Made by a program: the position numbers and the translations under genes. This document shows positions 25,548 to 46,484 of a DNA stretch of 64,000 nucleotides, piece after piece. A model generated the notes under the pieces. The model was not told the DNA's origin. It made no database searches and saw only the letters and a program-made list of their open reading frames with translations. Origin of the DNA: Moniliella sp. 'wahieum' (Eukaryota); the NCBI GenBank assembly GCA_003971905.1, contig RSEE01000052.1:310001-374000 (forward strand), read 5' to 3'. Numbering within the stretch: the stretch's first letter is position 1; the number at the start of each line of letters is the position of its first letter.

Positions 25548-26431
25548 TGTGGGGGGGGGGTGTGGGGGCAGCGACAGCGTGGGTGTGCTGTCGGGCGGTT
25601 GGGTCTGGGGTCGGACGGGGGCGCGGGGGTGGGGGCGATGGAGTGGGTGGATGGCGGAGTGGCGGGGTGTGGGGCGGTTGGGGGGCGGTTGGGGGCGGGG
25701 CTCAGCGAGGTGCAAGGCCCAAGGGAGCGTCGTGCTGCGTGGACGTGCGCGGGTGTGTCGTTGGGCGAGGCGAGCCAATGGCAGCCAGGCGGGCCGCATC
25801 GGCCTTAATCATCGGCCTCATCGGCACCCATCAGCGGCCGCATCGGCCTCATCCATCGCACACAGCGCGCGGATGCCTGTGTGGATGCCGCCCCACGCAT
25901 CGGTGACTGGTGATCGCTGTCATCGACCATCGGTCATCGATCATCGGTCATCCATCCCGGGCCTTGGGGGTTCCGCACCCCCCCCGCCAGCAAGCAGCAT
26001 GCATCCATCCATCCGCCAAGGCTGCAAGGGCATCCACATAACCCACCCATATGCATAACCCGTCATGCATCACCCATCCCGCACGCTACCTCCTCGCTCC
26101 CCCTGACAGCGGACATCTCGGTTCCTTGCTGCCCAACGCGCACAGAGCCAAGCACTCGCCACCCGAGGTGACGTCATCTGTTCCTGCTTCCAGTGCTGTA
26201 GCGACAGCCGCAGCCAGCGGCGCCATATGCCTTCGTTGCAGCCCGCGGAAGCGGTATGTACCCCACCGCGGAATTACCCCCCTTCCCAGGTCACGTGCCC
26301 GGAACTGCTTTTGCCCATTTCAGTTTTCTGCCCATCGTCCCACCTCATCCCATCCCAGCCCAGCCCACCCATCCCATCTCCCCAACGCCACTCACTGGCC
26401 GCAGCCCTGGCCCACCCCACCCGCCCACGCC

Positions 26432-26784
26432 ATGGCCACCAACGCCGAGATCCGCAAGCTGCGCGCGTGTCTGCGCTGCCAGTTCGTTCAGATGGGCCGC
26501 GACTACCATGCGCGCGGCTGCCCCAACTGCGAGGGGGTCCTGTCCATGCAGGGCTCCTGGGACACGGTGGGCGAGACCACCACGACCAACTACGATGGTC
26601 TGATTGCCATGGCCAACCCGGAGCAGAGCTGGGTGGCCAAGTGGCAGCATATTGGTGCGTCGCCGATCGGTCTGCGCTAAGGCGGCCACGAGCGCATACT
26701 GACATGCACCTCCCAGAGAAACGCGTGCCGGGATTGTATGCGGTCAAGGTGAATGGCCGCTTGCCCGAAGAGTACACAAGCTAG
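26432..26784 (+). CDS. SPT4: Transcription elongation factor Spt4; intron 26655-26716
   Basis: LRACLRC...GCPNCE zinc finger, SWVAKWQHI|EKRVPGLYAVKVNGRLP; GTGCGT donor, CTGAC branch, CCCAG acceptor. Confidence 0.95.
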
Positions 26785-27451
26785 CATACCGCCCATTGAC
26801 ACTCAGCACACGGGCACACACGCAACACGCACACACGGATCGCTGCGCACTTGCCTTGCCGGCATCCTGTTCCTTCATGTTCTCTGCCCGAGATGGACTA
26901 CGAGGCAACGTGCGCAGCGTCGTAGAGTGAGGCGCAGCATTGGGATGGATTTTGAGGGTGTGTACGAGGCCTGGTCGGCCGACCAGCGCACTATGGAGGT
27001 GGCGATGGCGGTGGCGGTGTGGTGGTGGCTGTGTAGGGAGGATTCGGTCTGGGGTTGAGCTCTGGGCCCAGCCAGGGCCAGTCTGGGTGCTCGCAGGTCC
27101 GAGTGGGTGTGAGTGGATGGGAGTGGGTGCGAGTGGATACGAGTGGATGGATACACGCGAATGTAGGCCGTCACATGAAGCTTGACAGACAGAAGCGACG
27201 CGTCGTACGAGCTTCTACCGCTGCCAAGAAACGGCTGGGCCATCACTTATACTCATCGCAGTTGGCCGCCCAGCTCGATGCTGATGTAATCACCCCGTCT
27301 CTCCCGATCGGCAGCACGCCCTTTCAACCGGCCTTGGCAGGCCCAGGCTGGCCCACTTAGGGGGTGCCTCCTATCCTACCCTTCTCACCACCTTCTCTTG
27401 TCTTGCTCTCGCCCGTCTCATCCTCCGTTCCTCGGTCCTCTCTGCGCCGCC

Positions 27452-28886
27452 ATGCCGCCCAAGGAAAAGCAGGGCGCCATTGGCGCCACGTCGGCTGCGC
27501 TCCGCAAACAGCTCAACGCGTTCACCACCAAAAAGGAGAAACCGCCTCCGCTCTCGGTCGACGACGGGCCGACCGACTTTCCCAAGCTTAAAAACGATCT
27601 CCTCATCCGTGCTGCCCGTGGAGAGCGGACAGAGCGGCCGCCTGTGTGGGTGATGCGGCAGGCGGGACGCTACCTGCCCGAGTTTCGCGAGCTGCGGGAA
27701 CGCCATGATTTCTTCGAGTGCTGTCGCACCCCCTCGTTGGCGGCCGAGATTACGCTGCAGCCCTTGCGGCGGTACCACGACCTGCTCGATGCCGCCATTA
27801 TCTTTTCCGACATTCTCGTCGTGCCTCAGGCAATGGGGATGGAGTTGGAGATGGTACCGGGAAAAGGCCTCTGTTCCCCGAGCCGCTCCTGGTCCCGGCC
27901 GACATGGAGCGGCTGCGGAAAAAAGTAGATGTGCGCAAGGAACTGGGCTACGTGCTGGAGACGATCACCTTGGTGCGCAAAAAGCTCGAAGGCCGCGTGC
28001 CGCTGATCGGGGTGTGGCGCGCCCTGGACCTTGATGACGTACATGATCGAGGGCGGCGGAGCGAAAGAATTTGACCGGGCCAAGCGCTGGATCTGGGCTC
28101 ACCCCGAAGAAAGCAAAGCGCTGCTGGAACGAATTACCGATGTCTGCATCGACTTTTTGGTGGAACAAGTGCGCGCGGGTGCGCAGGTGCTGCAAGTGTT
28201 TGATTCTTGGGCCGGTACACTGACTCCCTCGGATTTCCGCACGTTTAGCCTCCCCTATCTCCGCGCCATTGCGGCCGGGGTGAAAGATGCGCTTTCGCTC
28301 GAGTCGCGCCGGGCCATCCCCATGATTCTCTACACCAAGGGCGCCGGGAACCACTCGTTGCCCGAAATGGCCAAGTCGGGCTTTGACGTGCTCAGTCTCG
28401 ATTGGACGGTGCAGCCGGGCGTGGCACGAAACATTGTGGACCTCACAACGCTGGGACCGGCCGCGGGGTCGGACGGCGGCGTCGGCCGTAGCAGGCGCAA
28501 CGCGCAGCGTCTTGCACCGTGGTGGTTCCCCCCGTTTATCGGACAAACCATCGGGAAGTGGGACGCCAGTCTCGGAGCAAGCAGCCGGCGTGCCCTCGGG
28601 CATCGGTAAGGAGAATGTGCTCTCGATGGAGGCGACCAGTGGTCACCGGATTGCCCTCCAGGGTAACTTGGATCCCAGTGTTCTCTTTGCGGGCAAACAC
28701 GCCATCCGGGACCAAGTGGACAAGATGCTGCGGGCCAAACGCGGAGGCTTTGGTGGTTCGGGCGCTTACATTGCTAATCTCGGGCACGGGATCACCCCCG
28801 GTGTGGACCCAGAAGACTTGCGGTACTTTCTCAAGTGCGTTCATGAGTTGGGAAGGGAGATCTATGCCACCAATGGGGAAGAGTAG
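27452..28886 (+). CDS. HEM12: Uroporphyrinogen decarboxylase (apparent frameshifts near 27870, 28015 and 28500-28570)
   Basis: [64 protein letters not shown]. Confidence 0.93.
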
Positions 28887-29052
28887 CTGTTTCTTTTTGT
28901 CTCTTGCTTTTTCTAATTCAACGGCTCGACGTTTCAACTCACGTCGGCTCCATTGCTTCAATCAACAAGTACTTTACTGGGAATCATCGATAAAACAGGC
29001 TGAATCTCTGGCCATGGCAGTTTTGGGAGTAAGGAAAGGGTAGGCTAGACGA

Positions 29053-31423
29053 CTAGGCCTTGGGCCAGGAAGAGTAGATGACAGCGCTGAACGCCCGCAG
29101 CTCTTTCACCCCCGTCACGGCTTCCACATACTCGTTGGGGGTGCCCTGAAATGCAAGCTTGCTCAGCTTGGCCACGACGGGGAAAAGAGCGGCGAGCTTG
29201 ACGCGCTTGCCTGCGCCCGTGGTGAAGAACATGCTCTCTTCCTCGGGGGTAAGTTCATGGAAGCGGCGATTCGAGTCGAGCGGGAGCGGCGGCTCCATCC
29301 CGTCCTCCGTCAGCGGAGGAAGACCGAACGTGCCCCGGGTCCCGTTGCGCAAGACAGTAAAGGCAGCGTCAAGAGCCAAGCGCTGGACCAATCGGAAGTC
29401 AGGAGATTCTACGAGATCCTTGCTCTCGTTGAGCAGCGCGTGCAACGCCGGGTCTGCGAGGAGCACCCGCTCCGCTTCCGCGGAAGGGTAACCCGCACCC
29501 TCAGTCACCACCTCCGTCTCTTCCGCTACAGTGGTTGGGAAGAGCACATCGAGAAACCTACATCCCACCCCAGTGGTTAGTGTACTGCTCACCCGCATCT
29601 CAGAAAGACAACGTACGTTCTCCTCTTGGCCAGGAGCCGGCGAGAGCCGCGGGTGGTACCCGAAACCTCGGACAGAGCGGAGGAGTGCAAATCTTCCCCC
29701 CATGCGGATAGGCCAGAGGCATATGCCTCTTGCTCCAGCGGGGGCAGAACATCGTACTCCACTTTCCTTCGCACCGACCGGAGCATGCGGTCAAACTCAT
29801 GCCACGACATTTGGTTCATGATGGAGAGTTGGCCAAACGTGCTTTCCACCGCGGTGCGTACCCGGTCCGCCATGCGATGCCAGCCACGATGGAGGAGCCA
29901 CCAGGAAAAAGTAAGATAAATCCGTTCCGTGTGTGGGTTATGCCGACCGATGCTTCGTCGGAAGGAGCCATCTGACGCTCTGCTGTTCCAAACGCCGCTT
30001 GCAACGCTTCGTCCTCCATGTCATCCGCATCCTGCGGGGGGTTCTCGCCCATGGCCACAACCGAGGCGAGGTAAGAGTATCGTCCAATCAAGTTGAGCAT
30101 GATGTGGGTCTGAAGCGTCAGCAGCACAATCCCATACACACTCGTCACCGCCTGACTGAGCGAGACCACCTTCAATTCGTTCCAAGAGCGAGGGTTTCTT
30201 GTCGTTCTTTAAGCTTGGCTGCTTCGGCTGCTTCCCGCTCCGCCTCAGCTTCTGCTCGGGCAGCAGCTTCAGCGCGTGCCTTCTCCTCTTCATCCAGCCC
30301 TGGATCAGATTCAACGGGCACTTCGCTGGCCCCTTGATCGGGGGCATTTGATGTTTCTTCTGGAGCCTTTTCGTGCTCGGTGGAAGTCTTCTCCTCAGAA
30401 TCAGCATGGCCGTTGGCTCTTTCCACGGGCCCCCTCGCCCTCATGATTGGGAAGGGTGGACGTTGGCTCTGAGGCGCTAGAAGCTTCCGGACCGGTGGGT
30501 ACCTCCGTAAGCAAGGGTTCTTGTGCATCAGGCCTTTCGTTTCAGGGCCCGAGGTATCCAATGCCTTGGTCCCAAGATCTTCGGCAACCAGCGGCTTCGT
30601 TTCCTGATCCTCGGTAGCAGGCTCCTTCCGATCCGACTCCTCGGCAACCGGCTCCCTCGTTTCAGGATCATCAGCAACGGGATCCCCCGCCTCCTCGGTG
30701 GCAGGCTCCTTCGTCACATGCTTCTCGGTTTCGTTGGCCGGGGAATGGTCAGTGGATAGCGCGGTAGGGTCAGATTCCTGGAGAGCACGCTCTGCTGTCG
30801 TTTCATCCTCCACGAGTTCCTTTGCGGCAGCTTTTACGGGAAGAGGATCCAGGACCGTCTTGTCCGGGGAAGGCGTTTTTTCTTCAGAAACAGACTCAGC
30901 CGGTGCAGGCGTCTCATTGGCCGTGCTGTCATCTACCTTGGCTTTGACATCGTCCGAGACGGAGGCAGGAGTCTGTGCCGCAAGCGGCACGTCAGAGGCG
31001 GCCGCTTCCTCCGTCACAGTACGGGGGGGGCCTCCTTGTGATCGGGGAGGGAGGGAGGAGGAGGCTGTTGGCCGGCGGGCAGGGTGCCATTTTGTGGGGC
31101 CGAGACGGGGGGACGAGTCTTTTTGCGCTGCAAGGCCGAGGTGATGGCCTCGACGTTGAGCGACGCGAACACCTGTGCGGCCAGGGCGGGGAGCAGGGCC
31201 AAGGCAGTAAAGTAAAGGTGCAGTCGTCCTGGTTCTGGGCAAAGCGGCGGCGCAGGTTCTCCTTGTCGCGCCGCTCGGCGACGAGACGCTGCTGGGCATC
31301 GCGCACCCGGTCCAGCGCGTACTTGCCCACCACATACACGCCGCCCACCACACTGGTGGTGAAGAAAAGGGCGCGTCGCCGGCGCTGGACGAAGCCAGCG
31401 AGGGAGCTGAGGACCCACGACAT
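29053..31423 (-). CDS. PEX3: Peroxin-3 peroxisomal membrane biogenesis factor (frameshifted)
   Basis: N-terminal RRRRALFFTTSVVGGVYVVGKY, KENLRRRFAQNQDDCTFT, ELKVVSLSQAVTSVY...HIMLNLIGRYSYL, LLNESKDLVESPDF, NEYVEAV...ELRAFSAVIYSSW. Confidence 0.9.
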
Positions 31424-31725
31424 GGGGGAGGCGGGGAAGAAGGCGCTGGATGGTTGCGGGGCTGCACTGCTCGGCTCTGAGTCTGAGTGAGGCCGGGCGC
31501 GCATGAAAGCCGAGATGGGGGCGGGGCGGAATGGCGCGGCGGACGGCGGCCCGGGGGCGAGCAGAGCGGCGCATTTGAAAGTTGCATCTGACGTGGAAAG
31601 TAAAAGTCAAACGTCAACGTTTCGTTCGTTTTGTTTCGTTTCTGAGTTTGTCCCGCTCACCCGTCGCTCACCGCCGCCCACGCCGTCCCAGCGGCACCAC
31701 CACCGCCTCCTTCTCGTCCGCAGCG

Positions 31726-32729
31726 ATGGCCGATGCTGCGCTCGCCCCGGCTGCAGCCTCCCCGCTCGATGGCGCCGAGTGGGTCTCCCTCGCCGCGCGC
31801 CTTGGCCAGACCTGGTCCAACGACCCACGCGCCGTCTGGAGCAGCTTGTCATGATCATCGTACGCCGTCTCCGCCGCTTTCCCTGGGCCCTCCCCCTGAC
31901 CTGACCTCCCCCCCCCCCCCCAGTTTTCCGAGATTGGCGACAAGACCTTTCTGATTGCTGCCATTCTCGCCATGCGCCGTGCGCCCTGGGTTGTCTTTTC
32001 TGGTGCATTCACCGCCTTGGCACTCATGTCGATCCTGTCGGCCGTGATGGGTGCTGCCTTCCCTGCGCTGCTGCCCAAGTCGGCTACGACATTCTGGCCT
32101 CGCTGCTGTTCTTTGTGTTTGGGCTCAAGATGGTGCGGGAGGCACGTGAGATGGACGGATCGGAGTTGGCCGAGGAATGGAAAGAGACGGCGCGGGAGCT
32201 CGACACGGATTCGGTCGAAGCGGTAGGCATGCACGATTTGGAGGAAGGTCAGGCACGTGTCTCTCGTCCTGCTTCGCCTTCCCGACGTGCGCCACCTACG
32301 TTGACCGGGCGTGTGCGCGCACTGCTTGCGCTCGTGTCGAGCCCGACTTATGCCCAGGCACTCGTGCTCACCTTCCTTGGCGAGTGGGGGGACCGCAGCC
32401 AGATCGCCACCATCGCCCTCGCCGCCGCCCACAACGTCATCCTCGTCTCGATCGGCACCATTGCTGGACACTGCGTCTGCACCATGGCAGCCGTTACCAT
32501 GGGCAGCTGGCTAGCGGCGAGGATCAGTGTGCGCCACGTGACACTCGGAGGCGCAGGGCTGTTTTTGCTCTTTGGCTGCATCTATCTCTACGAGTCCTGG
32601 TCAGAGTTCAATGCGTCGACGGCCATGACACCACCTACGAGCGCACCGGCGTTCGATCACCCTTTGCCCACCGCCACCGTGACGGCCACCGTGACTGTAA
32701 CCAAATACCTCACTCAACTCGCCGCATAG
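31726..32729 (+). CDS. GDT1: GDT1/TMEM165 (UPF0016) Ca2+/Mn2+ transporter; intron 31860-31923
   Basis: Two signature motifs SEIGDKTF and GEWGDRSQ; GTACGC...CCCAG intron; one frameshift near 32095. Confidence 0.92.
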
Positions 32730-33060
32730 CATCGGACCAGATCGTCCAGTCGTCCCGCCCTTAAGGGCAGTGATATGCATTTTTGGAGTGGTCCATGGCG
32801 GGGCGGAGATACACCAGGACGGAGTGGTAGTCTAAGTAGAAGTACGAGGGGAGAAAGAGGGAGGGTAACAACTCGAATCCATTGGGGCCAAGGGTAAGGT
32901 GGCCAAAGAAAAAAAGAAAGGTACCGAATGAGGGGGCCCAGGCCGGAGCAAGGCCCGCCAAAACACGACAGAAAAGCAGAGGGATTTTGAAGGGGGAAAA
33001 TGGGATCATGATCGAGGTAGGGAAAAGGACAAATGCAAAAAGGGTCACCACCGCACAAGG

Positions 33061-35883
33061 TCACGCGCGAGTCAGGTATGTCCCCCTGATGGTCACATGT
33101 GCAGGATCAGTCCAAGATGGTGCACGCTACAGAGGGCCCCAACGAACCCAGCCAAACAGTTGACACCTAGCCAACACTCTCACGCCGTACTCGCCTCGCT
33201 GCTTCCGTCCTCAACTTCAAGGGAGGTGCTGGCCAGGGTGGGCAGGCCATGCACAAAGCCATCCAGGACAAGGCGAGGAGGTCCGCTGGCTCTGGGCGAG
33301 GGTTTGGAGCTCGTACTGTTCCTGTGCGTGAGCTTGGAAATCAAGCTGCGCAGGGTTGGACGAAGAAAGAGGATAGGAGGTATGGGCCGCTCCACCAGCC
33401 TGATAGCCCGCGACGTTGCTCTCGCCCTCCGACGTAGCCGATCGATTCGACTTCGAGCGTGGGGCCAGGCGGGTTGGTTGCCCTGGGCCCAGTCCCCGTA
33501 CCGGATGGGAGACGTGCATGGGCGCCGCTGCGTCGGGGCGGGAAGGCTCCTGGGGCCCACCCATGCACAGGCACATACTCCTTATCCAACGTACAGTCGA
33601 GCTGGGCCAGCGCTGTTGTAGGAACGTTATCTGCGCCTCCTGGGACGCAGGGACGGTCGGGCCAAAACAGAGCCGGCGCAAGAGTACGGGCCAACTGGGC
33701 GGGAGAGACACCAGACAAACGGATTGCGTCCTGAAGTGTGAAGAGTTGAAGGAAGCTGATGAGGAAGAGCAAAACTCTTCGTGACAAGGTCGGCAAGGAT
33801 GCCACGACGCGGTTCAAGACGCGGGGAAGAGGTAACTTGCTCCGTCATCCGGTGGAAGCAAGGCGGGTGTCAGCTCAGCCAGATAGGCAAGCAGCACAGC
33901 TCCCGGCAGGCGCGGGTCAGATGGCAAGCCAGCCAAAGTACGTCCCCCGATCGATGCGGACCGCAACTCCACTTGCTCTTGGGGCGGGGGCCGGGCCACA
34001 TACCTTTGGGTGCGGGGCATCGAGAGCAAGCATAGCGTCAGCACAGAAGGAGAGCACAACAGGGACCTGTGCCCTCGGGTAGATTGTGCTTGGGTCATGG
34101 CTGCCTCAAGGCTGAGCCCAAAGACACAAGGGTTAAAGGGGCTTTCCAAGGCAGCGACAATTGCGTCCATACTGGGGGCGTGGGCTCGGGGGCCATGGTA
34201 GGCGCGGCGGCCAGGCGCGCTTACAGGCACTCATTACGGTCCGCATTGCTGTTCCTTCGAGGGGGGGGGGAGGCTGCTCACCTGTCCCTCAATCCACACT
34301 TCCATCGGACGCTGTAACGCGGCAGAAGGCGGGAAACCAGTGATCAGCAACACATTGAGCATCTGCCATGCCCGGAAGGCAGAATCGGTGGAAGGATTGT
34401 GAGTGAGCTGCTTGATGAGTTGGACAAACTACCCAGCAAAGTTAGAAGGGCCTTAAACATAGCAACGCAAGGGGCAGAGGGCGTACCACTTCGTCTCTCA
34501 ACCCTTTGTTGGCAAGGCGGTCTCCACCAACCAACAGAGCTCATCGAGGAGGCTAGCCTGGGCGCCGAGCACGCCTGCGGTTCGGTCCCCGCAGACGCGC
34601 AGAATAATCTTAAACATGGTGTTCGCCTCGCGAACTTGGTGTCGGGGTGTAGACTCCAACAGCGGGGCAACAATGGGCTCGCGCTGCCACGCTCTAAGCT
34701 GGTCCAGCGGGATCTTACGACGCAAGCGGAAGAGACCAGACGCTGTTCTGAAAACGTTTGAGCTGCATAGACCGCCCAGGGAGTAGGGGTCGTAGAAAGA
34801 GAAGGTGAGGACCGCGCCGGGACAGGCGAGGTACCTTGCTGGGTGCGCGGAGCATCGCACTGGTGATCTGAGCAGCAAAGCTGATGGGTTCGATGGAGGC
34901 GCTCGGGGCTCCCGAATGCGAGGCGGGGTGAGTACGCGCGGGAGCGGACGCTCGAGGCCGGTTCTTAGTTCGGCGCCCTTGTGGAGGGCCCGGAGGGGAG
35001 GTGGACCGGTGCGAGTGGGGTCGGGCGGGCAACCCGCTCGGCCGAGGCAGGAAAGAGGAAGGCTGGGAGGAAGAGAGCGTCGAAGGCGGTTGCACACTGT
35101 CCGACCTGGGGACCAGCAACGACGTATGCGAGTCCACCACCAGATGGTCAGGCAGGTGGGCAACTTCCTGAATAGCAGTCATTGGGATGACCAGGCCCCT
35201 GGGCCGGTCCCACTGCGTCACGCTCGACTCGGAGTTGTGGTAGTACGGCCGGCCGCGGTGGGGGTCAAAGAATTCAAGCCAGGCACCGTCCGGCGGTGGG
35301 GGCAGGACAAGTGTGCCACTCGGCACTTCCCAGCGGCACTCACCCGTGTGTGGGTTGGCAAAGAAGGGTTCTCCCGTGGTTGGATCAGTGATGACCGCCC
35401 AAAAATAGGCCCCCCAGGCCATGGGCTGTGGCGACCCGTGTGGGTCCCGGACATGCAAAGGCGTACGACCAGAGGGGCACAATCGGGCTTGTCAGCATCG
35501 GCAGGTTCAGCAGGCTCGGCAGGCCGGCGGGCAGAAGACGAGGGCTGGCTCTGGCTGCGGCGGGGAGGGGAGGAGCGCTCTGCGCCCTGGACCCTATCCG
35601 ACAGGAGAGAGGAGCGGGAGACACGGGCGGCATAGGCGAAGGTGAACGGTTCGTCATCCGACGTGGTGGGATAAGGGAGATGATGGAGGCCAGAGGAGGC
35701 AGTGCGCGTGCCGGTGCGGTGGCCAGTACTCTCTGTGCCCAGGTCGAAGAGGAAGGTACCGGCACTGGTGCCGGTGCTGGTGAGGCTGCTGCGCGGGCGA
35801 TCGGAGCGGCTGGAGGGGGAGCCTCCGGACGCGGGGCTGGGGGGGCTGGTCCACTCGACGTGGTCCGAGGCGGAGGAGGGCAT
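33061..35883 (-). CDS. WW-WW / MyTH4 / RhoGAP protein (ARHGAP39-like), frameshifted with introns
   Basis: FWAVITDPTTGEPFFANPHTGECRWEVP and WLEFFDPHRGRPYYHNSESSVTQWDRP (WW); WQREPIVAPLL...FKIILRVCGDR (MyTH4); VFGLSLE...LPTLSRRVLLFLISFL...LARTLAPALF (RhoGAP). Confidence 0.8.
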
Positions 35884-36877
35884 GTCCGGGGCGGGCAGAC
35901 CGGCGGGCAGGCGTTGGTCCAAGTCCACCGCGCTCCCGGCTGGCAGCAGGTGGCGGTGAGGCGGCCAGGCGTTGAAAAAGCTTCTGAGCGGAGTGTGAAT
36001 TGATCCGCGCTGAGCGCGCTGAGCCTACCGCAAAGTGTTGAACTTGAACTTGATAACTTGAACGTTCACGCGTTCCCGCGACGCTTCCAACGCTCATCAT
36101 GCATCACACGATCCGTCTGGCGGCGGTGGCGCATCTGCAGAGTCGCGCTTTTCTATACAGAAGCGTAGCCGGCGCAACCGTAACCACTGCCGGCCTCTCA
36201 CTCTCATACTCTTACACCTCACAAGCCAAAATACTCACGAATTGGGTCACCGACCGCCTGCCAGTTGTAACCTTTTCGCCCTTGTGTTCATACGTTGACC
36301 GTACTAATAACTGTCAGAGCCTGGGAACTAGCGCAGGAGTCACCGGACGGAAGCATCTCCCTTGATATGTTGACATGTTGACACTGCTGCCTGCCCCCAG
36401 CTGCTGCTCGCCCTGACAATGTCGTGGAATGCAACGAGATGCCTCTCTAGCAGGTCCCGGTGAGGAGGCTTCCTGCTGGAAAAAAACGCGAATTGCAGCT
36501 GATGGTATTAACGGTAGGTGCACAAGGGCAAAAGGCACGCAAACAGAAAAGACAGAAGAGAGCACAGGCTAGTATGTAGGGGGTACAGACGGAGGAGACT
36601 CCTCTCCACACAACCAATACCCTGCTGAGCCAAGGAACGGATTGTGGAAGAGAGGGGTACCTGTTGTCGCCGCAAGTGCAAAGAGACGCAGAGGATGTAT
36701 AAGGAGAATAAGGAGAAAAGAGGGAGAGGAAAAGTTCCTGTGATGTCAGGAGAGAGACGGTATGCTTGTGCTGTGCCAAACAAATCAAGGCCTGAAGAGG
36801 GGAGGGGAGGGGTAAGTGGAGGGCAGTTTTTGAACGGGATTTGGCAATCTGTGAGAGATGTGTACACCGTTGAAAAA

Positions 36878-39800
36878 CTACTGGGAGCGCGGGGAGGGGA
36901 GGAGAGGATCAAAGGTGGTGCGGGTGTGGGTGGAAGAAGAGTCGCACGGAAGTGGATCAGAACTGACGCTGGCGAGCATTGAAAACCCGTCCATCTTGGT
37001 TGCGTCCCTCTCTTCGTCCCATGTGCCTGCGTGAAGGTCGTTTCGCCCTCGCTTGATTATCGGGTCCTCCTCCTCGGCGAGCGAAGTGGCAACAGGAAGG
37101 GTCATCAACAGCTCTTGCAGATCCTCCTCTTCCAGTGGGGCAGGAGAAGAGGCTTTCTCCTGGTTCTCAGCCCAAATCGGTAAGGTCTTGAGCCGGCGCG
37201 AATACGTCGTCTGCACCTCTTGCCGCAGCTTCTTGTTCAGCAAACGGAGCCGTTGGAGTTCATATGGCCAGCTGGAAGAGCAATGTGGATCAAACTCGGG
37301 TAGCACATTCGAAGGCAGCTCCGTACCTGTAGGAAGTGGAAGGGCGTGGTATTGAACACACTGCTGTCCTCACTCAAGCCGAGTCGGGGTGGGAACCACG
37401 AATGTGAACCCAGACGCTCGTTGCGCCCGCAGAGGGGTAGACTTGCGACAGTACGGTCACCTTCCGCCCCAGTCGATCGAGCAGGCCGTGCTGAACCACC
37501 GACTGCTCTCCATGTTGGAGGGCGGCGAGGAGCCCAGCCCTGGGGCCGGGAACCAGGTCCTTGACCGACTTGCCCATCAATTGACCGGACTCAGTCTCAG
37601 AAAATGTATCACCGGAGCAGTTACAGCCAAGAGGAGGCCGGTTTGTTTGGACAGGCGCATCCAGAACCCTGGCTCGGAGGAGGAAGTGACCCGACTCAAT
37701 GCCTGAGGTGGTACATGCTCAATCTCCCGTGGTCGACCGGAGAGAATGACGACTTTCATTTTGCCCGTCTCCATGTGAACTCGGCCGACAGACTCGATCC
37801 ACTTAAAGTCCGACTCTCCGTACTTTCATTCGGAATAGCAAATGGACTTCCTTGGAAGTCATGCTCGAAGATGTGGCGTCCTTTAGCTGGCGAAAGACCG
37901 GAACCACATCGGCGGGGTGCATATAGTTTCCGATCGACTTGCCGCTCAGTTCCACGTGGCTCCATCCCGTCTGACGCTCGATGCGTGGGGAGAGGTAGAA
38001 GAAGAATGCCTTTGATTGAAAGGACAAAAAGAACGTCTGGCGTGTTCTCCACCACCACGCGAGACCAATGTTCCTGCTTGACCGAGGGGAGTGCCTCTTC
38101 TTCTGGATACAGCATCTGCACCACCGAGCGACCGTTGATCACCGCCCATGGGTCCACTAGTTGACTTGCCCATTCAAACGGGTTTACTTCCGTTGGCCGC
38201 ACAACGCTCGCCACCGATTGGGGCTCTGTTTGAGAGGGAGAGGCGCCTCTCAAGCAAGGGTGCGAGGGAAGATGCGAGAGAGTACTGGCTTCCTTGCTCT
38301 CTAGTATGCCATTCTCCCCTTGAGCCAAGAGAGGGACTTGGAAGCCTACCACGTATTTGACCCCGGTACCCCCCTCCCATGGGATGGGGACAGCGTGACC
38401 AAATTGAGAAACGGAGCACCGCCTTTACGGTAGTTGATCAAACTTGCTGGCACTCCTCCAGCTTCATCAGGTGGTGGGAGAGATGGACGACAGCACAGGG
38501 GTCGGTGGTGGTGCGGACCTCGCCCTTGTTCATCAGCCCATTGGGTGCCTGGAGGAAGCGCGCATTCTTCCCGATCACTTCGTGACGCTCGTAGCCCGTC
38601 AAGTGGAGGAAGGAGTCGCTGCAATACACAATTGGATGGTCTGGCAGCGTCACGTCCGCCACCGTAAACGCCGCTGAAAGACGGACGGGACCCAAGTCGA
38701 TCACCGGATGGCGGCGAGAGGCGACCTCTAACAGTGCGTTCAACGGATCGAATGCACCGCTCCCGCCTCCACCCTCAGTCCCATTTGCAATTCCAGCTTC
38801 CTGCTTGGGCCCCGTCTCCATTCCCATTCTCATCCCCATCTTCGGATCTGTATCCGTCTCGATCTCCGCCCCTTTCCATTCCCAGTCCCCGGCAGAGTTC
38901 CTATACCACGAGGCAACGAGTATGCCTCGGTCGGTACACCTTTCCTGGTCAACCCACCGTTAAAGAGGGGCGGGCGAATGGAGACGTAATCCGACGGAGT
39001 GGGGATCAAGGTACTGTGTGCCGAACTTGCTCCGTCAGTAAGAGACCAGACGTTGGTGGTGCTGGAACTGGACGCGCGGCTGAGGTACGGCCGCCGGAAG
39101 GAGGTCCAGGTACTGTGCAAGTCAAAGTTCGTCCATCGATCGGAGGTTCATTCGTCGGGCGGAACGGGGCGCTCGCTCTGCCATCCAGGCGAAGGGGGTG
39201 GGTACTTGAGAGGCGCAATGGACGGATTGGTAGATCCGAACGAACTGGACAGTGGATGGGGAATGCCCCGCGGCCGAGCCTCCTGGTCGTTACTTGAGGT
39301 GCGGGTTTGGAGAGAATGCCGGAGATTGCCCCGTGCCTCGCGCAGACGTGCCATCCTCCGTCGTTCTTGCAGTGTCATCTTGGGAGCAGCATCGCTTGTA
39401 AGGAGAGGCAGCATGTCGTCGAGGCTAGGATCCCGGTTGGAGGACGAGGAGGACGAGGAGGGCAATGTCCAGCTGATGGTTGGCTCGCTCATAGGAGCAC
39501 AATCACCGAGCAAGGCGCCCACCCTATCTTTCTTCTGGTTGCGCCCGTCGTGTGAGTTGAGGTGGGACATGTGGTGTGCAAAAATTTGGGCGTGGTAGCC
39601 TGCTTCTCTCTGGGGGGAGGTGGAGCCGGAGACGCGAACAGGGGAGGCGGCAAATGGAGCAGACGAACTGGCTAGTGTGCCAGTGGGATTGGCAGTGTTA
39701 GGTACAAGATTATCGGTGGGATGAAGTACGGGGAAAAGCATGCTGGCATTGGCTCTGTTGGGTGCTGGTTCGAGTGGTTCGAGTGGTTCGAGTGGAACAG

Positions 39801-40014
39801 GTAACAGGGATGTGGGATCGAATGAGTTTGTTCGGCTGGGTCCGGGCAGGGGCAGCACAGCAGGCTGATGAATAGAAAATGGGTCGCAGTTGGTGGAATC
39901 AAACGGAAGAGCGTCGTCAGCATAGTCTGTAGCTGCGAGAAGGGACTGGATCTCGTCGGAGTTGAGCAGCTGCGACAACAGCTCACCCTCTTCGGCGGGG
40001 GCGATGGATGCCAT
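36878..40014 (-). CDS. WC-1: White Collar-1-like blue-light receptor (LOV + PAS; no GATA zinc finger seen), frameshifted
   Basis: GAFDPLNALLEVASRRHPVIDLGPV..., PIVYCSDSFLHLTGYERHEVIGKNARFLQAP, SLINYRKGGAPFLNLVT (LOV); VENTPDVLFVLSIKG...YMHPADVVPVFRQLKD (PAS); SSWPYELQRLRLLNKKLRQE (basidiomycete WC-1-type C-terminus). Confidence 0.9.
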
Positions 40015-43000
40015 AATATGAGGCACAGGTGGTATGGCGGGGCTGCAACAGAGGAGCAGCCAATGTGTCGAGTGCGTTTAGAGGAGGAAGCGGAGGGGGC
40101 GCTCCTTTGTGGTTATAATCAGCATCCATGGAAGTTAGTATGCTGGTTTGCAAGCCCCTTGGTCACCGGAGATGAAAGGGAAGAGGAACCGCACGTACTG
40201 TAGCAATCACGAGCTGGGGTGATTAATGGCCGATGGAAGAGCTGGCCCATTCAAGGGAGGGGGGAGGAGGGGAAGTAAATGAAGATCGTGGGCTGCCCAG
40301 GCGACCGAGAGCTCGTTGGAGATGCAGACAGGTAGCAGAGAGTTGATACGAAGAGTTGGGGGATGTTACAGCCGAGGACAGGGGGCGCTCCGGTCAGGAA
40401 TGCAGGGCAGTGTATAGGCTCCGATCGGACAGGACGGGGGTGAGACCGGGTGAGAGATTGAAGACAGGTGGTGGAAGGCAAGGGAATGAGAGGGAAGGGA
40501 GAATGCGCATGCGGAACCATCCGTTGCACTGTTCGGAAAGGAGCTGGGGTGCGGGGCGGGGAGGGACAAGTGCGGCACTAGCGCAGCCACATAAACGCCA
40601 GTGGGGTGCGGTTACTCGAGTGTTACATGATACTCGTGATGGGCTGGGATGGCTCGGATGTCGCAAGGGAGAAAGGGGGTTCACAGAGAGTGTGTTGAAG
40701 TGATCGTGCTGGGGGGATGTTTTAATTGGCTAGTATGGCCGTTGCGGGCGCGTGGCGGGAAACGAGGGGCGCGAGATCGCGTATGCTGGCGAATGATGCA
40801 GTGTAGTATAGTGGTATGCCAGACTGACCGTATAACTGTGGCAAGTAGAAGAGAATACGCGTGGGGGGAGTATAGGGGGTGTGGCTGAGTGAGCGCCCAA
40901 GCTGATCGTTGAAGCTCAGCGGCTCAACGTTGTTCAACGCTGACGCGCTAATGGGGCTTGAGGCCGGGGTGCCATCGGAGAATACGCTGGTGGATGCAAC
41001 TCAGTACGTCAGTGCCAGCACGCAGTCTGAGTACAAAAGCCGAAAAACGGCCACCTGGATGAGCGCTCAGACAAAGCGCTGAGCAGGAGCGACCACGCTG
41101 CATGATGGATGCGGGGCGAACGGGGAGCGGCAGAGGGGCTACAGGACGCTCGTCTCTCTTCTGGCTATCGCAGACGATGGCAGGCGATGGCCAGCGCCAA
41201 ACCGAATGCTGTGAGAGGACGGGGGCGGATGATCGATACCTAGATACCTGACGATTCTATCGATGATCCAGTCTATGAATCATCCTGGCCATCGATCGAG
41301 CACGTCCCTGTACTGCGCAGTGCACCCGCGTGTTTGTCCCAGCGCCAGCCCTTCCAGACCCTTCCCAGCCTGATGGCGGCCACGGCTTACGGATCGGATG
41401 TTTCAAGGGTTGGATTCGCATGAGCAATCGATTACTCTTCCTGCAGCCGCACCCTTGCCACGCTGGCCCAGCCAAGCCCCCGCCTGGGCAAACGCAGGGC
41501 CCACAGGTGGCGAGGAGCCGTAGGAGGCGGCAGGCCACCGCAGACCATCGACCATCGCTGCTAGTCCGCCGCCACCTTGAGTGTGCTGCCCTTGCGCTCC
41601 CCCTGCTCTCTGATCCCCACGTTGCCGGCAAAATATGCAGAAGAGGAACCGGTGCCGGGGTCCAGTAGGGTCCAGTTGCCATGTATCATCGGCATCAAAT
41701 ATCACCGGCCGCCATAGCCGTGTAACGCGGAACCGACGTAACCGCGTATCCGGTAACCGGTAACCGGCAGCCACACAAGTGCCACCAGTGTCTGTCTCCC
41801 TTCTACGAGCACCTCCTGGCACACTCCATCCTTGCTAGAAGCTCCCAAAGGTATATCGTTTCTCAAAGCGAGTCCACGTGACCGTTCGCACGTTGCTTTT
41901 CTTCAGGTGACCCTCTCCTTCCGACCTTTTGGTTACTGGTGTCTTAATTCGTCTGGTTCGCTTTCGGTGAGAAGCAGTTTCCTGAATATGCCAGTGCGTT
42001 CCACCTTTCTCGTCACAGCCTCTCCCACCCTTAAAATCATTCTGGACTGGGATCTTAGATCTTATCGGTTATCCAGCACAGCTGTGAGGCCTATGGGTAC
42101 TCCAGCGAAGGCAGCAGGTTGCGAATAAAGTACGCGCTTACTGTACTAGGCTCACTCATCCGGCGTGTAACAGGCTTAGCCAGGCTTAGCTCGTGTGCCA
42201 CCTTCCGGTACGCAAGAATTACCTCTCCTTTCTGTCCCAATCCTTCAAAGTGTGGTTGGTCCCTTCCATTTCTATCCTCCAAACGTGCTTGGTCCCATCA
42301 TTCATCGGTAGTCCGTGCACCTTGCCTTCCTCCTCTCTCACGCCTCGTACGGTCCACATTCGCCCCAACACAGGCGACTGATTGAAGAACATGGGTGTCC
42401 GATCAGCTTCCGCACAGCCTCTCGTGTGGCAACCCGCCACACTTGCGGATCTTGTGGGGGTGTGCAAGCCAATAAGATGCGCTGTACAGGGTACGGGACT
42501 GAATACTAACCAATCCGATTCAGCTTGCCGTAGCAGTGCATTGTGAGCATCCGCCTCGTTGAGTTGTGTTTGAATAAGTCCTGTAGCCGACTCTTTTCCC
42601 ACATCTTCCTACAGTGGTGTCGCCCTGTCGTCAAAACACGTTCACGTATACACGGGAGAATGAGGTCGCCGCAAAAGTGTGGTGATAAGATAGTCGTTGA
42701 TCTCTTTGGCTGCAGGACGTGCGTGGGGCACAATGAGCGAGTACAGACTTGGCACAACCACATCCTCTCATCTGGGATCTGGAGAGGCAAATCCATGACA
42801 TTATATCAAAGTGATCGCCCTTCCTATAGTCCCCGAGGGGTTCTGATTCCTACAAGCGTCAATTCTGATGGCCAGCACATTGTCGTCCAGCTCGCCCTCT
42901 CAATTACATATGGACCGAAGCCAGCGGCGAAGCTTGGTGCCGAAGTACAGTACCTCCATAGTAAGGAGCGTACCTGAAGGGCAAAATGCCATATCAAACT

Positions 43001-43684
43001 TAGGATTGGCAAAATTAGGTACATATTATTCTGCCTCAGTTGGTCGTGCACCTTATTGTCAAACTACGACCGGCGACAATCCTCATCGATCATCACAGTA
43101 GTCTAGCACATAGTGAAATCCCAGTCGCGACTTTCCCGCAGACGTAATGAGGCGACTCGGTGTGTATATATGGCCACCGTCACAGTAAGGAAGGGAGAAG
43201 ACCATGTCGACAGTGATGGTCCGATTCGGAGTGAGGAGCCCGGAAGAGGTAGGACAGTGCCTCCCTGCTACTATCTGTAGTGAGGTTCAGGCATTCCGTT
43301 CAGGCTGGATTAGCTGGTTAGGTGAAGATGGAAGGAAGGGCGAACGTGTTGAACGTTTTGAACGGGCCATGGGCACCGGCCAATGCACCGACGCACTCAG
43401 CTCAGGCGTAGGAATTCACTACGTCATCGATTCATGGGGTCATGATTATTGCTTGCAATAATTCGATTGGTATTTAAACTTGCTGCTTGAAGCTTGACAC
43501 GGCCGCTGTCGTATGGCATGTGGCATGTGCATGTGACTGCTGGTGACGGGGCCTCTGCCCTCGGTTAGCTTATCTCTTCGCTCTCCCCGCCGCAGACCAC
43601 AAGGCAAACCATTTTGCATTGGTCAAATTGATCCGACACGCTGGAATTGGCTCCATCCCCCCCCCACCACTTGCGTCTATCACC

Positions 43685-46484
43685 ATGTACGCTGCTGTCC
43701 TTTCGGGCGATGCAACGCCAGGCGACGTGACCCCCACGCGAGAAACGCCATCGGCCCCGTGGACCATGCCAGGTGCTGCATCCCCACCCGATGAGGACAG
43801 TTTCCCTGAGCTGTCCAGCTCCGCCGCAAGCGCCCATTCTCATGCAGCCATGATGCTGTCTCACCTGTCCCCTCAGGAGAGAAACCGAGACTTGGAGATG
43901 AGTGTCGAAGGCCCTGTTCCGGCCCCTCACTTGTTTGGCCATCAAAGCGCCCCCACCCGCCACCTGTTGGAAGAAGAACTCGCCGAGAATAACTACGACA
44001 ACGAGGTGGCAGACGAACATTGGGGCATGAGTCGCTCGTCGTATTCCCTTGTCGGGGGTGAGAAGGACGAAGAAGGGGACAATTATGAACCTTCTGTCAG
44101 TTCCTCTAAAGACGGGAAAGGCGAGTTTGCAGCGTCTCCTGCGGATGCGGCTGCTCGCCTAGCCAGCTTAGGCACAGGCGCGGCCGACGGCCACTCCTCC
44201 GTCCCTGCCCCTATTTCGTCGGAACTGGCGGAGCTCTACACCAGCTTACAACAGTGCCTCGAGCTTCGGGACAAGTATATGCTGGCTTCTCATCAGGCTC
44301 ACTGGGAGGAGAATCCAAAGAATTGGGACGCTGAATATGTGGAGGAATTCAATGCCCAGCCAGGGGCGGGCAAGGCCAACCAGGACTACAAGAAGGAGAA
44401 AGAAGTATATGTTGATGGTTGTTCTCTTGCGTACTCGCCCGATGACGATTATTGGTCCGACGGCTCCGGGGACAAGCCCGCTCTCAAACCGTGGAGAATC
44501 TATCCCGCCCCACCCCGACCTCACTGGGAAAACTTCCACCCTGCTCCAGCTTCCTCCTTTGTTGTTCGTCCCACAGCGGTCAATCCCCTTCCTCCCGCCA
44601 TCGCTCCCGCTTCCCCGGCCAACGCCAACGCCGCGAGCCAGCTACTCACTGCCACTGGTAGCGTACCTGGCAAGTTCGACATGAAGTTCATGCGCTTCCC
44701 TACCAAGCACACCCGCCAAGGAAGGCCGATTACATTCCGAAGGGTGGACGGGGTATTCCAGGTGTTTGATGAACAGGCTCCCGAGTCGGTCGGCAAGGAG
44801 GCCAAACCACTTTTTGCAGCGATCACCATGCGGCAATACTACAAGGATCTGGATTTTCTCTTAAACATTGTTGCGGATGGTCCAACCCGCTCTTTTGCTT
44901 GGCGCAGGCTCAAGTACCTTGAAGCCAAGTGGAACTTGTACACTCTCTTGAACGAGTATCGCGAGTTGGATGGGATGAAGAAAGTTCCCCACCGTGACTT
45001 CTACAATGTGCGCAAGGTCGACACGCATATTCACCACTCAGCCTCGATGAACCAGAAGCACCTACTCCGGTTCATCAAAGCCAAGATCAAGCGTCATCCG
45101 GACGATGTGGTCATCTTCCGTGATGGTCACAAACTCACTTTGGAACAAGTGTTCGAGTCGCTTGGTCTGACGGCGTACGATCTTTCGATTGACACTTTGG
45201 ACATGCATGCCCACCAGGACGCTTTCCACCGCTTTGACAAATTCAACCTCAAGTACAACCCCCTCGGCGAGTCGCGTCTTCGTGAGATCTTTCTCAAAAC
45301 CGACAACTTGATTCATGGCCGCTACCTTGCGGAGATCACCAAGGAGCTAATGGCGGATCTCGAGGCCTCCAAGTATCAGATGACAGAATACCGCCTCTCC
45401 ATTTATGGCCGCAACAAGGAGGAATGGAACAAACTTGCTGCCTGGGTTGTGGACAATGATCTGTTTTCCCCAAATGTGCGTTGGCTAATCCAAGTCCCAC
45501 GCTTGTATGATGTCTACAAGGCCAACGGGACGGTGGACAACTTTGATGATGTGATCGACAGTATGTGCCCATCTGAATTCTTGGGAACGTTCACGAAACC
45601 TGACTGGGATTTCTACAGATGTCTTTGGGCCGCTTTGAGGCGACACATGACCCCTCTGCTTACCCCAAGTTGCATGTCTTTCTCCAACGTGTGGTCGGGT
45701 TTGATTTGGTTGATGATGAGTCCAAGCCGGAGCGCAGGGTCCATAACAAGTTCCCCGTCCGTCGGAGTGGGACGGACTGTCCTCTCCGCCATACTCCTAC
45801 TGGGCCTACTTTATGTACGCCAACATCTCCACCCTCAACCAGTGGCGCCACATGCGTGGGTATAGTACGTTTTGCGTTCCCCTTTTTTGCGTCGACCGTG
45901 TCAAGTACTGACGGCGAGCAGATACGTTTGTACTGCGCCCCCATGCTGGGGAGGCGGGCGACCCGGACCACTTGGCCGCGACCTTCCTGACCTCACAATC
46001 GATTTCGCATGGCATCCAGCTGCGCAAGGTACCGACGCTACAGTACCTCTACTACCTCAAGCAAATTGGGTTGGCCATGTCGCCGCTGTCGAACAATGCG
46101 TTGTTCCTCTCGTACGAACGGAACCCGTTCCCCACTTTCCTCAAGCTGGGGATGAACGTGTCCCTGTCGACGGACGACCCATTGCAGTTCCATCTATCCA
46201 AAGAGCCGTTGCTGGAAGAGTACAGCGTCGCAACGCAGATTTACAAACTGCGTGCGTCGGACATGTGCGAGTTGGCGCGCAACTCAGTGCTGCAGTCGGG
46301 CTGGGAGATGGAGATCAAACGTCATTGGTTGGGCAACAAGTTTTACCTCCCAGGCCCACGCGGGAACGTGGTGTCCAAATCCAACATCCCATCCATTCGC
46401 CTCCGCTTCCGCGAACAAACGTTGCGCGAGGAACTGGATTTGGTCTGGTCGTCGGGACACGACGTTACCCAAGCCCGGCACTAA
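43685..46484 (+). CDS. AMD1: AMP deaminase; introns 45561-45618 and 45865-45921
   Basis: [81 protein letters not shown]. Confidence 0.96.

What the first reader, a model, noticed from the sequence alone, without database searches (positions are those of the whole stretch)
38380..38760. WC-1-like LOV domain lacks the photoactive cysteine (GKNARFLQ instead of GxNCRFLQ)
Seen: the minus-strand codons read GGG AAG AAT GCG CGC TTC CTC CAG, so the adduct-forming Cys position is Ala (GCG, 38561-38563) within an otherwise open, well-conserved LOV frame. Established: in Neurospora WC-1, VVD and phototropin LOV domains this Cys forms the flavin C4a adduct, and Cys-less LOV proteins can signal through flavin photoreduction to the semiquinone. 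Inference: this may be a natural fungal WC-1 that is light-blind, redox-sensing or semiquinone-signalling. Caveat: in this indel-rich assembly, a compensating pair of errors (AATTGCCGC to AATGCGCGC) could produce the same sequence.
Basis: partly seen in the sequence, partly recalled or inferred. Interest (0 to 1): 0.85.

Follow-up and report, generated by a model that had tools for sequence, protein, structure and literature searches.

The report
Fungal blue-light receptor missing key cysteine
A fungus related to the smuts appears to encode its main blue-light receptor (White Collar 1) with alanine in place of the one cysteine that normally reacts with the light-excited flavin; this is probably real, but the assembly is full of errors and the codon needs resequencing.

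Summary
The codons are as described: GGG AAG AAT GCG CGC TTC CTC CAG on the minus strand, with Ala (GCG) at 38561-38563. The gene (about 40014-36878, minus) is the Wco1/WC-1 orthologue of a member of the Ustilaginomycotina, with the order LOV, PAS, PAS and no GATA finger found.

The stated frame is not fully open. The LOV domain is spread over three frames, and the gene has at least 5 frame breaks. Equal or similar breaks occur in essential neighbours (URO-D, a mitochondrial-type ABC transporter, AMP deaminase) at homopolymers and short repeats. They are therefore assembly errors, not decay of this gene.

The Cys is the only one of 37 highly conserved LOV columns that the window has changed. 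The nearest orthologue (69% identical) and 145 of 150 closest representatives carry Cys, and 4 LOV proteins among the other 5 naturally lack it.

The proposed error pair needs a deletion plus a non-homopolymer insertion two bases apart, which is unlike the errors inferred here. AMP deaminase shows no radical changes at 175 conserved columns.

I rate a real Cys-less receptor at about 0.55, an artefact at about 0.17, a paralogue at about 0.1 and a pseudogene at about 0.08. No reads, genome or same-species sequence could be obtained. Function is inferred only: flavin bound, no adduct, signalling by flavin reduction or none.

The parts
36878..40014 (-). Wco1/WC-1 orthologue, approximate gene span. 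The ATG of MASIAP... is at 40014. The first stop in the last matched frame is at 36878-36880. As assembled, the reading frame is broken several times.
   Evidence: the N-terminus and a basic motif also match orthologue P0145
39310..39384 (-). Conserved N-terminal basic motif (frame -2), shared with P0145 residues 697-721
   Evidence: tblastn 68% identity over 25 residues
38299..38755 (-). LOV domain of the FAD-binding VVD/WC-1 type, with N-cap and loop insertion. It is encoded in three frames: 38755-38447 (-1), 38444-38385 (-3) and 38391-38299 (-2).
38549..38572 (-). Motif GKNARFLQ. U. maydis Wco1 has GKNCRFLQ and most relatives have GRNCRFLQ.
   Evidence: PMC4831468 section 16
38561..38563 (-). 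[quoted passage not shown]
38338..38340 (-). CAA, the conserved Gln of GFQ (equivalent to VVD Gln182), kept
   Evidence: role of Gln182 from PMC4682037
38445..38447 (-). Frame break 1 (-1 to -3) inside ECQ|SLINY. It fits one G lost from GG.
38385..38391 (-). Frame break 2 (-3 to -2) inside NLVTL|PIPW, next to a CCCC run
37984..38012 (-). Frame break 3 (-2 to -3) in PAS-B, inside a TTCTTCTTC repeat
37801..37807 (-). Frame break 4 (-3 to -1), next to an AAA run
37585..37589 (-). Probable frame break 5 (-1 to -3) between PAS-B and PAS-C
   Evidence: overlapping HSPs to P0145 in two frames; translations
37589..38033 (-). PAS-B (Pfam PAS/PAS_3) and the segment after it, 50-55% identical to P0145
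37374..37585 (-). PAS-C region (frame -3)
   Evidence: weak, 29% identity over a long HSP
37193..37309 (-). Conserved C-terminal helical motif (SWPYELQRL...KKLRQEV) shared with WC-1 relatives

Best explanation
The genome really encodes its Wco1/WC-1 orthologue with Ala at the adduct position, and the gene is intact; its frame breaks are consensus errors of the assembly. The LOV domain keeps the VVD/WC-1-type fold. It keeps the FAD loop, every other highly conserved flavin-pocket residue and the signalling Gln, so it most likely still binds flavin. It cannot form the Cys-C4a adduct. My committed mechanism is inferred, not shown. Blue light (or cellular reductants) reduces the flavin to the neutral semiquinone, and protonated N5 is read by the conserved Gln as in adduct-forming LOVs. 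This would give a weaker or slower response that depends on the redox state. The protein would also keep light-independent work as partner of the GATA factor Wco2. Within this explanation I put reduction-based signalling at about 55% and a purely structural, light-blind flavoprotein at about 45%.
For: Codon and motif read directly. It is the orthologue: it has the LOV, PAS, PAS order, N- and C-terminal motifs shared with P0145, and it is sister to P0145 (SH-aLRT 93) in a 20-row clade (96) with Ceraceosorus (quick tree). The Lys in GKN is normal for the subphylum (U. maydis GKNCRFLQ, PMC4831468). The loss is confined to one residue: 28 of 29 columns at least 90% conserved in the N part and 8 of 8 in the middle piece are kept. 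Of the 32 differences from P0145 over 102 positions, only the Cys falls in a conserved column (9.1 expected, P 4e-5). GC3 is 0.77 and GCG is a common Ala codon. Frame breaks are not specific to this gene: URO-D has 2 (CCC and GTGTG contexts), the ABC transporter has 6 or more in 2.8 kb, AMP deaminase has 1, and peroxin-3 and Iml2 have at least 1 each. In-frame garbling is rare. AMP deaminase differs at 4 of 175 conserved columns, all conservative, and it shows no excess of window-unique changes. It also shows 0 alternate-frame rescues in 18 and 16 mismatch runs. The artefact needs a deletion plus insertion of a base between two Gs, two bases apart, whereas the indels inferred here lie in homopolymers or short repeats. 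Natural precedents exist: 4 of 150 representatives are LOV proteins without the Cys, including WC-1-architecture proteins with Ala (P0270, with its 100%-identical cluster member P0293, on 3 contigs) and Gly (P0276, with GATA). For the mechanism, VVD C108A:M135I:M165I photoreduces to the semiquinone and forms the normal light-state dimer, and this needs Gln182 (PMC4682037). By alignment through P0145, the window has Ala, Leu, Leu and Gln at these four positions.
Against: No reads, no whole genome and no same-species sequence were available, so the codon rests on one error-prone consensus. Two frame breaks lie 115-175 nt downstream, so local quality is poor. Errors in this assembly are patchy (ABC gene 54.3-54.7 kb). 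The nearest orthologue and 145 of 150 representatives have Cys. Substitution-type consensus errors could not be measured. Leu at the two Met positions is common among relatives (78 of 133, and 18 of 58), so it is not a specific adaptation. Nothing here shows flavin binding, expression or any light response.
Confidence: 0.55

Rival explanations
1. Assembly artefact: the true sequence is AAT TGC CGC (a normal GKNCRFLQ, as in U. maydis). The consensus lost one T and gained one G two bases later, which keeps the frame and changes only this codon.
For: The assembly clearly carries indel errors of both signs in essential genes. Two lie within 180 nt of this codon. Errors cluster locally, and a compensating pair about 160 nt apart exists in the ABC gene. 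The artefact needs only two events and would restore the motif reported for U. maydis. The LOV segment shows more window-unique changes than its sister (9-13 against 2-5; nominal P<0.05 with 3 of 9 outgroups), and part of that could be error.
Against: The 309-nt stretch that holds the codon has no frame break and matches 28 of 29 conserved columns. The required insertion puts a new base between two Gs, unlike the homopolymer and short-repeat indels inferred here. My own rough estimate, not a tool result, starts from 1-4 indels per kb. Two independent indels inside the same 4 bases of one given codon then come to about 1e-5 to 1e-4. By comparison, 4 of 150 relatives are natural non-Cys LOVs. 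The AMP deaminase control shows no radical change in 175 conserved columns and no alternate-frame rescues.
Confidence: 0.17
2. Cys-less paralogue: the lineage has a second, canonical Wco1 elsewhere. This copy is a duplicate freed from photochemistry, and the organism senses blue light normally.
For: U. maydis is reported to have a second wc-1-like gene without LOV hallmarks (um02052; PMC4831468). Mucorales carry several wc-1 genes (names seen). The window's LOV branch is long (0.54 against 0.11).
Against: The gene pairs with a single Cys-bearing orthologue along its whole length, including the N- and C-terminal motifs. Apart from the Cys it keeps all LOV hallmarks, unlike the description of um02052. 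No second copy is visible, but only this 64-kb window could be searched.
Confidence: 0.1
3. Decaying pseudogene: some or all of the frame breaks are real, and the Cys loss is part of the decay of a light-sensing pathway that is no longer used.
For: The gene has 5 frame breaks in about 1.3 kb (3.8 per kb). Nine breaks in about 6.9 kb were pooled from URO-D, the ABC transporter and AMP deaminase. A Poisson calculation done by hand gives P of about 0.03-0.04. The LOV segment is modestly accelerated.
Against: The breaks lie in the same sequence contexts as those in essential genes. The ABC gene reaches a similar or higher density locally. No stop codon occurs inside any aligned segment. All conserved columns but one are kept. 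GC3 is 0.77. The PAS-C piece shows no acceleration (11 against 10).
Confidence: 0.08

Closest known systems
Ustilago maydis Wco1 (um03180), basidiomycete White Collar 1
   Same: Same subphylum. It has the LOV-PAS-PAS order without a zinc finger, and its motif begins GKN (PMC4831468 section 16, passages read). It works with the GATA factor Wco2 and drives blue-light induction of photolyases.
   Different: Wco1 has GKNCRFLQ and the window has GKNARFLQ. The U. maydis sequence itself was not available to align. The partner and the light response of the window's protein are unknown.
Neurospora VVD and Trichoderma ENVOY (solved structures 2pd8, 3hjk, 3rh8, 4wuj); Neurospora WC-1 LOV
   Same: These are the best solved-structure matches (E 8e-19). 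The alignment runs without gaps through the N-cap and the FAD-type loop after FLQ.P.
   Different: They have Cys108, and VVD has Met at 135 and 165. The window has Ala, Leu and Leu. The window and P0145 also have Ala at the position of VVD Cys71 in the hinge.
Engineered VVD-III (C108A:M135I:M165I) of Yee et al. 2015
   Same: It has the same residue class at all three positions. It photoreduces to the neutral semiquinone and forms the light-state dimer through Gln182, which the window keeps (PMC4682037, sections 5 and 7 and passages).
   Different: It is an engineered short LOV protein studied in vitro. The window's protein is a natural, large transcription-factor subunit. No spectroscopy exists for it.
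Natural Cys-less LOV-like proteins (about 70 GenBank entries; halobacterial BAT-LOV*)
   Same: All strictly conserved LOV residues are present except the Cys, which is replaced by Ala, His or Pro (PMC4682037 section 7).
   Different: BAT-LOV* lacks the FAD loop and is archaeal. The supplement text held here contains no fungal or white-collar term, though this may not be the full list.
Unnamed or partial fungal WC-1/VVD-like proteins without the Cys in public assemblies (P0270/P0293 Ala; P0276 Gly; P0234 Pro, Staphylotrichum tortipilum)
   Same: They have WC-1 architecture (LOV+PAS+PAS, and P0276 also has GATA) with a non-Cys residue in G.N.RF.Q.
   Different: They are distant from the window (42-50% identity in the LOV). 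P0270 does not show the NYRK..F.N and GFQ motifs by simple pattern search, so it may be more degenerate. None is described in the papers I searched.

Membership tests
LOV domain (flavin-binding PAS subgroup) | PAS fold recognised by profile | tested here: met
   Pfam PAS_9 at 32 bits (cut-off 27) on the N part alone. VVD and ENVOY match at E about 1e-18.
LOV domain (flavin-binding PAS subgroup) | Adduct-forming Cys in G-X-N-C-R-F-L-Q | tested here: not met
   Ala (GCG, 38561-38563). This is subject to confirmation of the codon by reads.
LOV domain (flavin-binding PAS subgroup) | Other conserved flavin-pocket residues (N and R-F-L-Q of the motif, N-Y-R-K-G..F.N, Gln of G-F-Q) | tested here: met
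   28 of 29 and 8 of 8 conserved columns are kept. GFQ was read at 38346-38338 and aligned to VVD Gln182 through P0145.
LOV domain (flavin-binding PAS subgroup) | Binds FMN or FAD and shows a photocycle | not testable with these tools
   This needs expressed protein and dark and light spectra.
White Collar 1 / Wco1, basidiomycete type | Order LOV, PAS-B, PAS-C with the conserved C-terminal helix | tested here: met
   PAS-C is only weakly matched
White Collar 1 / Wco1, basidiomycete type | FAD-type loop insertion between the motif helix and the next helix, as in VVD and WC-1 | tested here: met
   Ungapped alignment to VVD across the loop.
White Collar 1 / Wco1, basidiomycete type | No GATA zinc finger (stated for basidiomycetes in PMC4831468) | tested here: inconclusive
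   No GATA hit appeared in the 8 gene ORFs or in 232 of the 243 window ORFs of 110 aa or more. Six of the 243 and all shorter ORFs were not scanned. Orthologue P0145 has none.
White Collar 1 / Wco1, basidiomycete type | Orthology by tree | tested here: met
   Sister to P0145 (93) within a 20-row clade (96) that holds Ceraceosorus. This is a quick tree on 103 columns, and the careful search did not finish.
White Collar 1 / Wco1, basidiomycete type | Partner WC-2/Wco2 present, and blue-light-dependent gene induction | not testable with these tools
   No genome is held and no runs were listed.
Natural Cys-less LOV* (Yee et al. 2015) | All strictly conserved LOV residues present except the Cys | tested here: met
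Natural Cys-less LOV* (Yee et al. 2015) | Flavin reduction coupled to a conformational change | not testable with these tools
   Inferred only from VVD-III and BAT-LOV*.

The most novel reading that the evidence does not exclude
This is a natural White Collar 1 that has dispensed with the cysteinyl adduct. [quoted passage not shown] That would make it the first eukaryotic transcription-factor photoreceptor known to use in nature the route that Yee et al. demonstrated only in engineered proteins.
Probability: 0.28. Interest if true: 0.8.

Novelty: new variant of a known kind. Interest (0 to 1): 0.5.

Why it matters
Whether LOV receptors can work in living cells without the adduct cysteine has so far been argued mainly from engineered variants and one archaeal domain. 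A natural WC-1 that lost only this residue, and kept the flavin pocket and the signalling glutamine under purifying selection, would be a ready-made test case. The tests would ask whether the fungus still induces photolyase-type genes in blue light, with what sensitivity, and whether the response depends on redox state. It would also bear on the proposal that LOV receptors arose from redox-sensing flavoproteins. If the codon turns out to be an assembly error, the finding is ordinary.

Tried and rejected
Sequencing runs: none was listed for 36500-40500, and no RNA holder was listed, so read laying could not be used.

Whole genome: none is held for this window, so I could not search for a second WC-1 or for Wco2.

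Earlier scan notes: none by place or by sequence.

Metagenome contigs: 11 loci were found, all distant (44-60% identity over partial matches), so no codon-level comparison was possible.

The first word-based protein search (176-2000 aa only) missed the closest orthologue because it is 2037 aa long. The exhaustive HMMER search found it.

Literature: four searches and passages of PMC10056346 gave no report of a natural Cys-less fungal WC-1. Subscription journals are not covered.

The supplement text of PMC4682037 held here (2 files, 10,964 characters) has no fungal term.

The careful tree did not finish in 300 s, so the quick tree is reported.

The first residues of the PAS-B relative-rate piece lie upstream of a frame break, so that row overstates window-unique changes and I did not rely on it.

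I considered that the window-specific Cys at 38495-38497 could serve as a relocated adduct Cys. I rejected this as unsupported. By helix periodicity it should not face the flavin, but that is recalled structural reasoning and was not tested.

No structure prediction was run, because the domain cannot be given as one unbroken translation of the window.
Full report
THE OBSERVATION

On the minus strand the window reads GGG AAG AAT GCG CGC TTC CTC CAG at 38572-38549, with GCG at 38563-38561. The codon lies in a 103-residue stretch (38755-38447, frame -1). That stretch scores as a PAS/LOV domain (Pfam PAS_9, 32 bits against a cut-off of 27). It matches fungal WC-1 proteins at E 1e-27 and solved VVD and ENVOY structures at E about 1e-18.

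All 8 relatives that I aligned have GRNCRFLQAP where the window has GKNARFLQAP. The frame ends at TGA 38440-38438, and the domain continues in frame -3 (38444-38385) and then frame -2 (38391-38299).

WHAT THE GENE IS

The best named matches of the AMP deaminase encoded in the same window are Tilletiaria (72%), Pseudozyma flocculosa (85% over 84% of the query) and Tilletia species (81% over 85%). An unnamed Logan contig reaches 87%. The window therefore comes from a member of the Ustilaginomycotina that has no close annotated relative.

An exhaustive HMMER search with the LOV segment gave 5499 hits at E up to 0.001. The closest hit, P0145 (Logan contig, 2037 aa), is 69% identical across the segment. 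P0145 also matches several other parts of the window's gene:
- the N-terminus;
- a basic motif at 39384-39310;
- PAS-B;
- the following segment;
- the C-terminal helix at 37309-37193.

Its Pfam content is LOV plus PAS with no GATA finger.

In a quick maximum-likelihood tree of 131 LOV segments the window is sister to P0145 (SH-aLRT 93). Both lie inside a 20-row clade (96) that includes the two Ceraceosorus proteins. The paper on U. maydis Wco1 states that basidiomycete WC-1 lacks the zinc finger and that Wco1 carries GKNCRFLQ (PMC4831468, passages). The Lys in the window's motif is therefore normal for the group, and only the Cys-to-Ala change is unusual. The gene runs from an ATG at 40014 to about 36878.

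THE FRAME BREAKS ARE ASSEMBLY ERRORS

Mapping relatives by tblastn shows the frame order -1, -3, -2, -3, -1, -3 between 38752 and 37428 at contiguous protein coordinates. That gives four firm breaks and one probable break. They sit at a GG pair, beside a CCCC run, in a TTC repeat and beside an AAA run.

The same thing happens in genes that cannot be dispensable:
- Uroporphyrinogen decarboxylase is split at a CCC run and at a GTGTG repeat.
- A mitochondrial-type ABC transporter, mapped with an 87%-identical relative, changes frame 6 times in 2.8 kb. One of these is a compensating pair about 160 nt apart, and alternate-frame rescues suggest at least one more break.
- AMP deaminase has one break at about 45750.
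- Peroxin-3 and Iml2 have at least one break each.

The density in WC-1 (5 in about 1.3 kb) is nominally above the pooled control rate of 9 in about 6.9 kb. A Poisson calculation done by hand gives P of about 0.03-0.04. However, errors are patchy, and the ABC gene is as bad locally at 54.3-54.7 kb. No stop codon lies inside any aligned segment of WC-1.

Pfam coverage of the window: I scanned 232 of the 243 ORFs of 110 aa or more. Five of the remaining 11 were scanned under slightly different coordinates, and six were never scanned.

IS THE ALA REAL?

Direct proof was not obtainable. No run was listed, no genome is held, and the metagenome contigs hold only distant relatives. The indirect evidence favours a real codon.

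1. The loss is confined to one residue. Of 29 columns at least 90% conserved among the 150 best representatives, the window keeps 28, and the exception is the Cys. The middle piece keeps 8 of 8, and the GFQ glutamine is present. The window and P0145 differ at 32 of 102 positions, yet only the Cys falls in a conserved column. Random placement would put 9.1 there (P 4e-5).

2. The assembly does not garble residues in frame at a measurable rate. AMP deaminase differs at 4 of 175 conserved columns, and all four are conservative (E/D, I/V, R/K, N/D). It has no excess of window-unique changes against its sister (for example 8 against 8, and 10 against 20). It also shows no alternate-frame rescues in 18 and 16 mismatch runs.

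3. On the plus strand that is an A lost from AA and a C placed between two Gs. The indels I could infer here are contractions or expansions of homopolymers and short repeats. By my own rough estimate, two independent indels in the same four bases of one given codon have a chance of 1e-5 to 1e-4, even at the local error density.

4. Natural loss is not that rare. Among the 150 representatives the aligned residue is C in 145, A in 2, and P, G and H in 1 each. The His row is a weak match to a non-LOV PAS domain. The others are:
   - a WC-1-like LOV+PAS+PAS protein with Ala (P0270, whose cluster has two members, 100% identical over the shared 605 residues, seen on three contigs);
   - a LOV+PAS+PAS+GATA protein with Gly (P0276);
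   - a partial Staphylotrichum protein with Pro (P0234);
   - a Gnetum LOV protein with Ala (P0239).

Evidence on the other side:
- The codon rests on one poor consensus, with two breaks within 180 nt.
- The nearest orthologue has Cys.
- TGC or TGT to GCG needs three base changes.
- Substitution-type consensus errors could not be measured.

A SIDE OBSERVATION THAT FITS A REAL CHANGE

The window's LOV branch is long (0.54 against 0.11 for P0145). Relative-rate counts give 9-13 window-unique changes against 2-5 sister-unique changes with in-clade outgroups. This reaches nominal P<0.05 with 3 of 9 outgroups, and with Agaricus as outgroup the counts are 9 against 12. The PAS-C piece (11 against 10) and AMP deaminase show no such excess. 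This is weak evidence for altered constraint on the LOV domain alone, and it could partly reflect error.

HOW IT PROBABLY WORKS (INFERENCE)

Yee et al. 2015 showed that VVD with C108A, in the M135I:M165I background, is photoreduced to the neutral semiquinone. It then forms the same dimer as the adduct state, and this needs Gln182. They also found about 70 natural Cys-less LOV-like entries with Ala, His or Pro at the position. I read the abstract, section 7 in full and passages of sections 5, 6 and 8 of PMC4682037.

I aligned the intact orthologue P0145 to VVD chain 3hjk_A and carried the mapping over to the window. This puts Ala at the position of Cys108, Leu at Met135, Leu at Met165 and Gln at Gln182. 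Leu at the two Met positions is common among relatives (78 of 133, and 18 of 58), so it permits photoreduction rather than being an adaptation to it.

The most likely picture is a flavin-binding Wco1 that cannot form the adduct. It would either respond to light or redox state through flavin reduction, or serve only as the light-independent partner of Wco2. From memory, not from any call, Neurospora WC-1 lacking its LOV domain still supports clock function in the dark.

NOVELTY AND VERDICT

Cys-less LOV-like proteins are known, and unnamed Cys-less WC-1-like proteins exist in public assemblies. Four literature searches found no description of a natural Cys-less WC-1. I file this as a new variant of a known kind.

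Probabilities:
- real Cys-less, intact Wco1: about 0.55;
- artefact: about 0.17;
- Cys-less paralogue beside a normal copy: about 0.10;
- pseudogene: about 0.08;
- remainder: unassigned.

Interest is 0.5, and resequencing one codon would settle the question.

Noticed in passing
window 27290-28883 (+): Uroporphyrinogen decarboxylase is split over overlapping frames at about 27865 (a CCC run read as CC) and about 28010 (a GTGTG repeat, two bases short). This is clear evidence of consensus indels in an essential gene.
   Followed up: yes
window 53608-56422 (+): A mitochondrial-type half-size ABC transporter changes frame at about 54172, 54500, 54661, 55214, 55578 and 56133. Alternate-frame rescues at 54315-54329 and 54435-54458 suggest further errors clustered in 54.3-54.7 kb.
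   Followed up: partly
window 43547-46457 (+): The AMP deaminase gene has a 772-codon unbroken frame. A probable short intron lies at about 45565-45634, and one frame break lies at about 45750. Error density therefore varies about tenfold along the window.
   Followed up: partly
window 38495-38497 (-): A window-specific Cys (TGT) sits in the helix after the FAD loop, where none of the eight commonest residues among relatives is Cys (E, D, A, Q, G, S, R, K) and P0145 has Gly. It is probably not facing the flavin, but this was not tested.
   Followed up: no
window 38672-38674 (-): The position of VVD hinge Cys71 is Ala in both the window and P0145. It is Cys in 107 of the 139 counts shown for this column and Ala in 10. 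This looks like a clade feature of the N-cap hinge.
   Followed up: no
P0145 (Logan contig), whole protein: The closest orthologue is 2037 aa, about twice the window's protein, because of long low-complexity Ser/Gly/His/Pro-rich stretches on both sides of the PAS core.
   Followed up: no
P0270/P0293, P0276, P0234: Public assemblies hold WC-1-architecture or VVD-like fungal proteins with Ala, Gly or Pro at the adduct position. I found no paper that describes them.
   Followed up: partly
window 38959-39148 (-) and about 37370 (-): Two further frame changes in the WC-1 gene (-2 to -1, possibly through -3, and -3 to -1) lie in poorly conserved sequence. They could be introns or more indel errors.
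   Followed up: no
window 20473-35491: Other neighbouring genes by Pfam are a BTB protein (20473-22164, -), ribose-5-phosphate isomerase (24583-25808, -) and Spt4 (26042-26677, +). Further along are peroxin-3 (29056-31613, -; at least one frame break near 31210), GDT1 (31905-32726, +) and a WW-domain protein (34718-35491, -).
   Followed up: no
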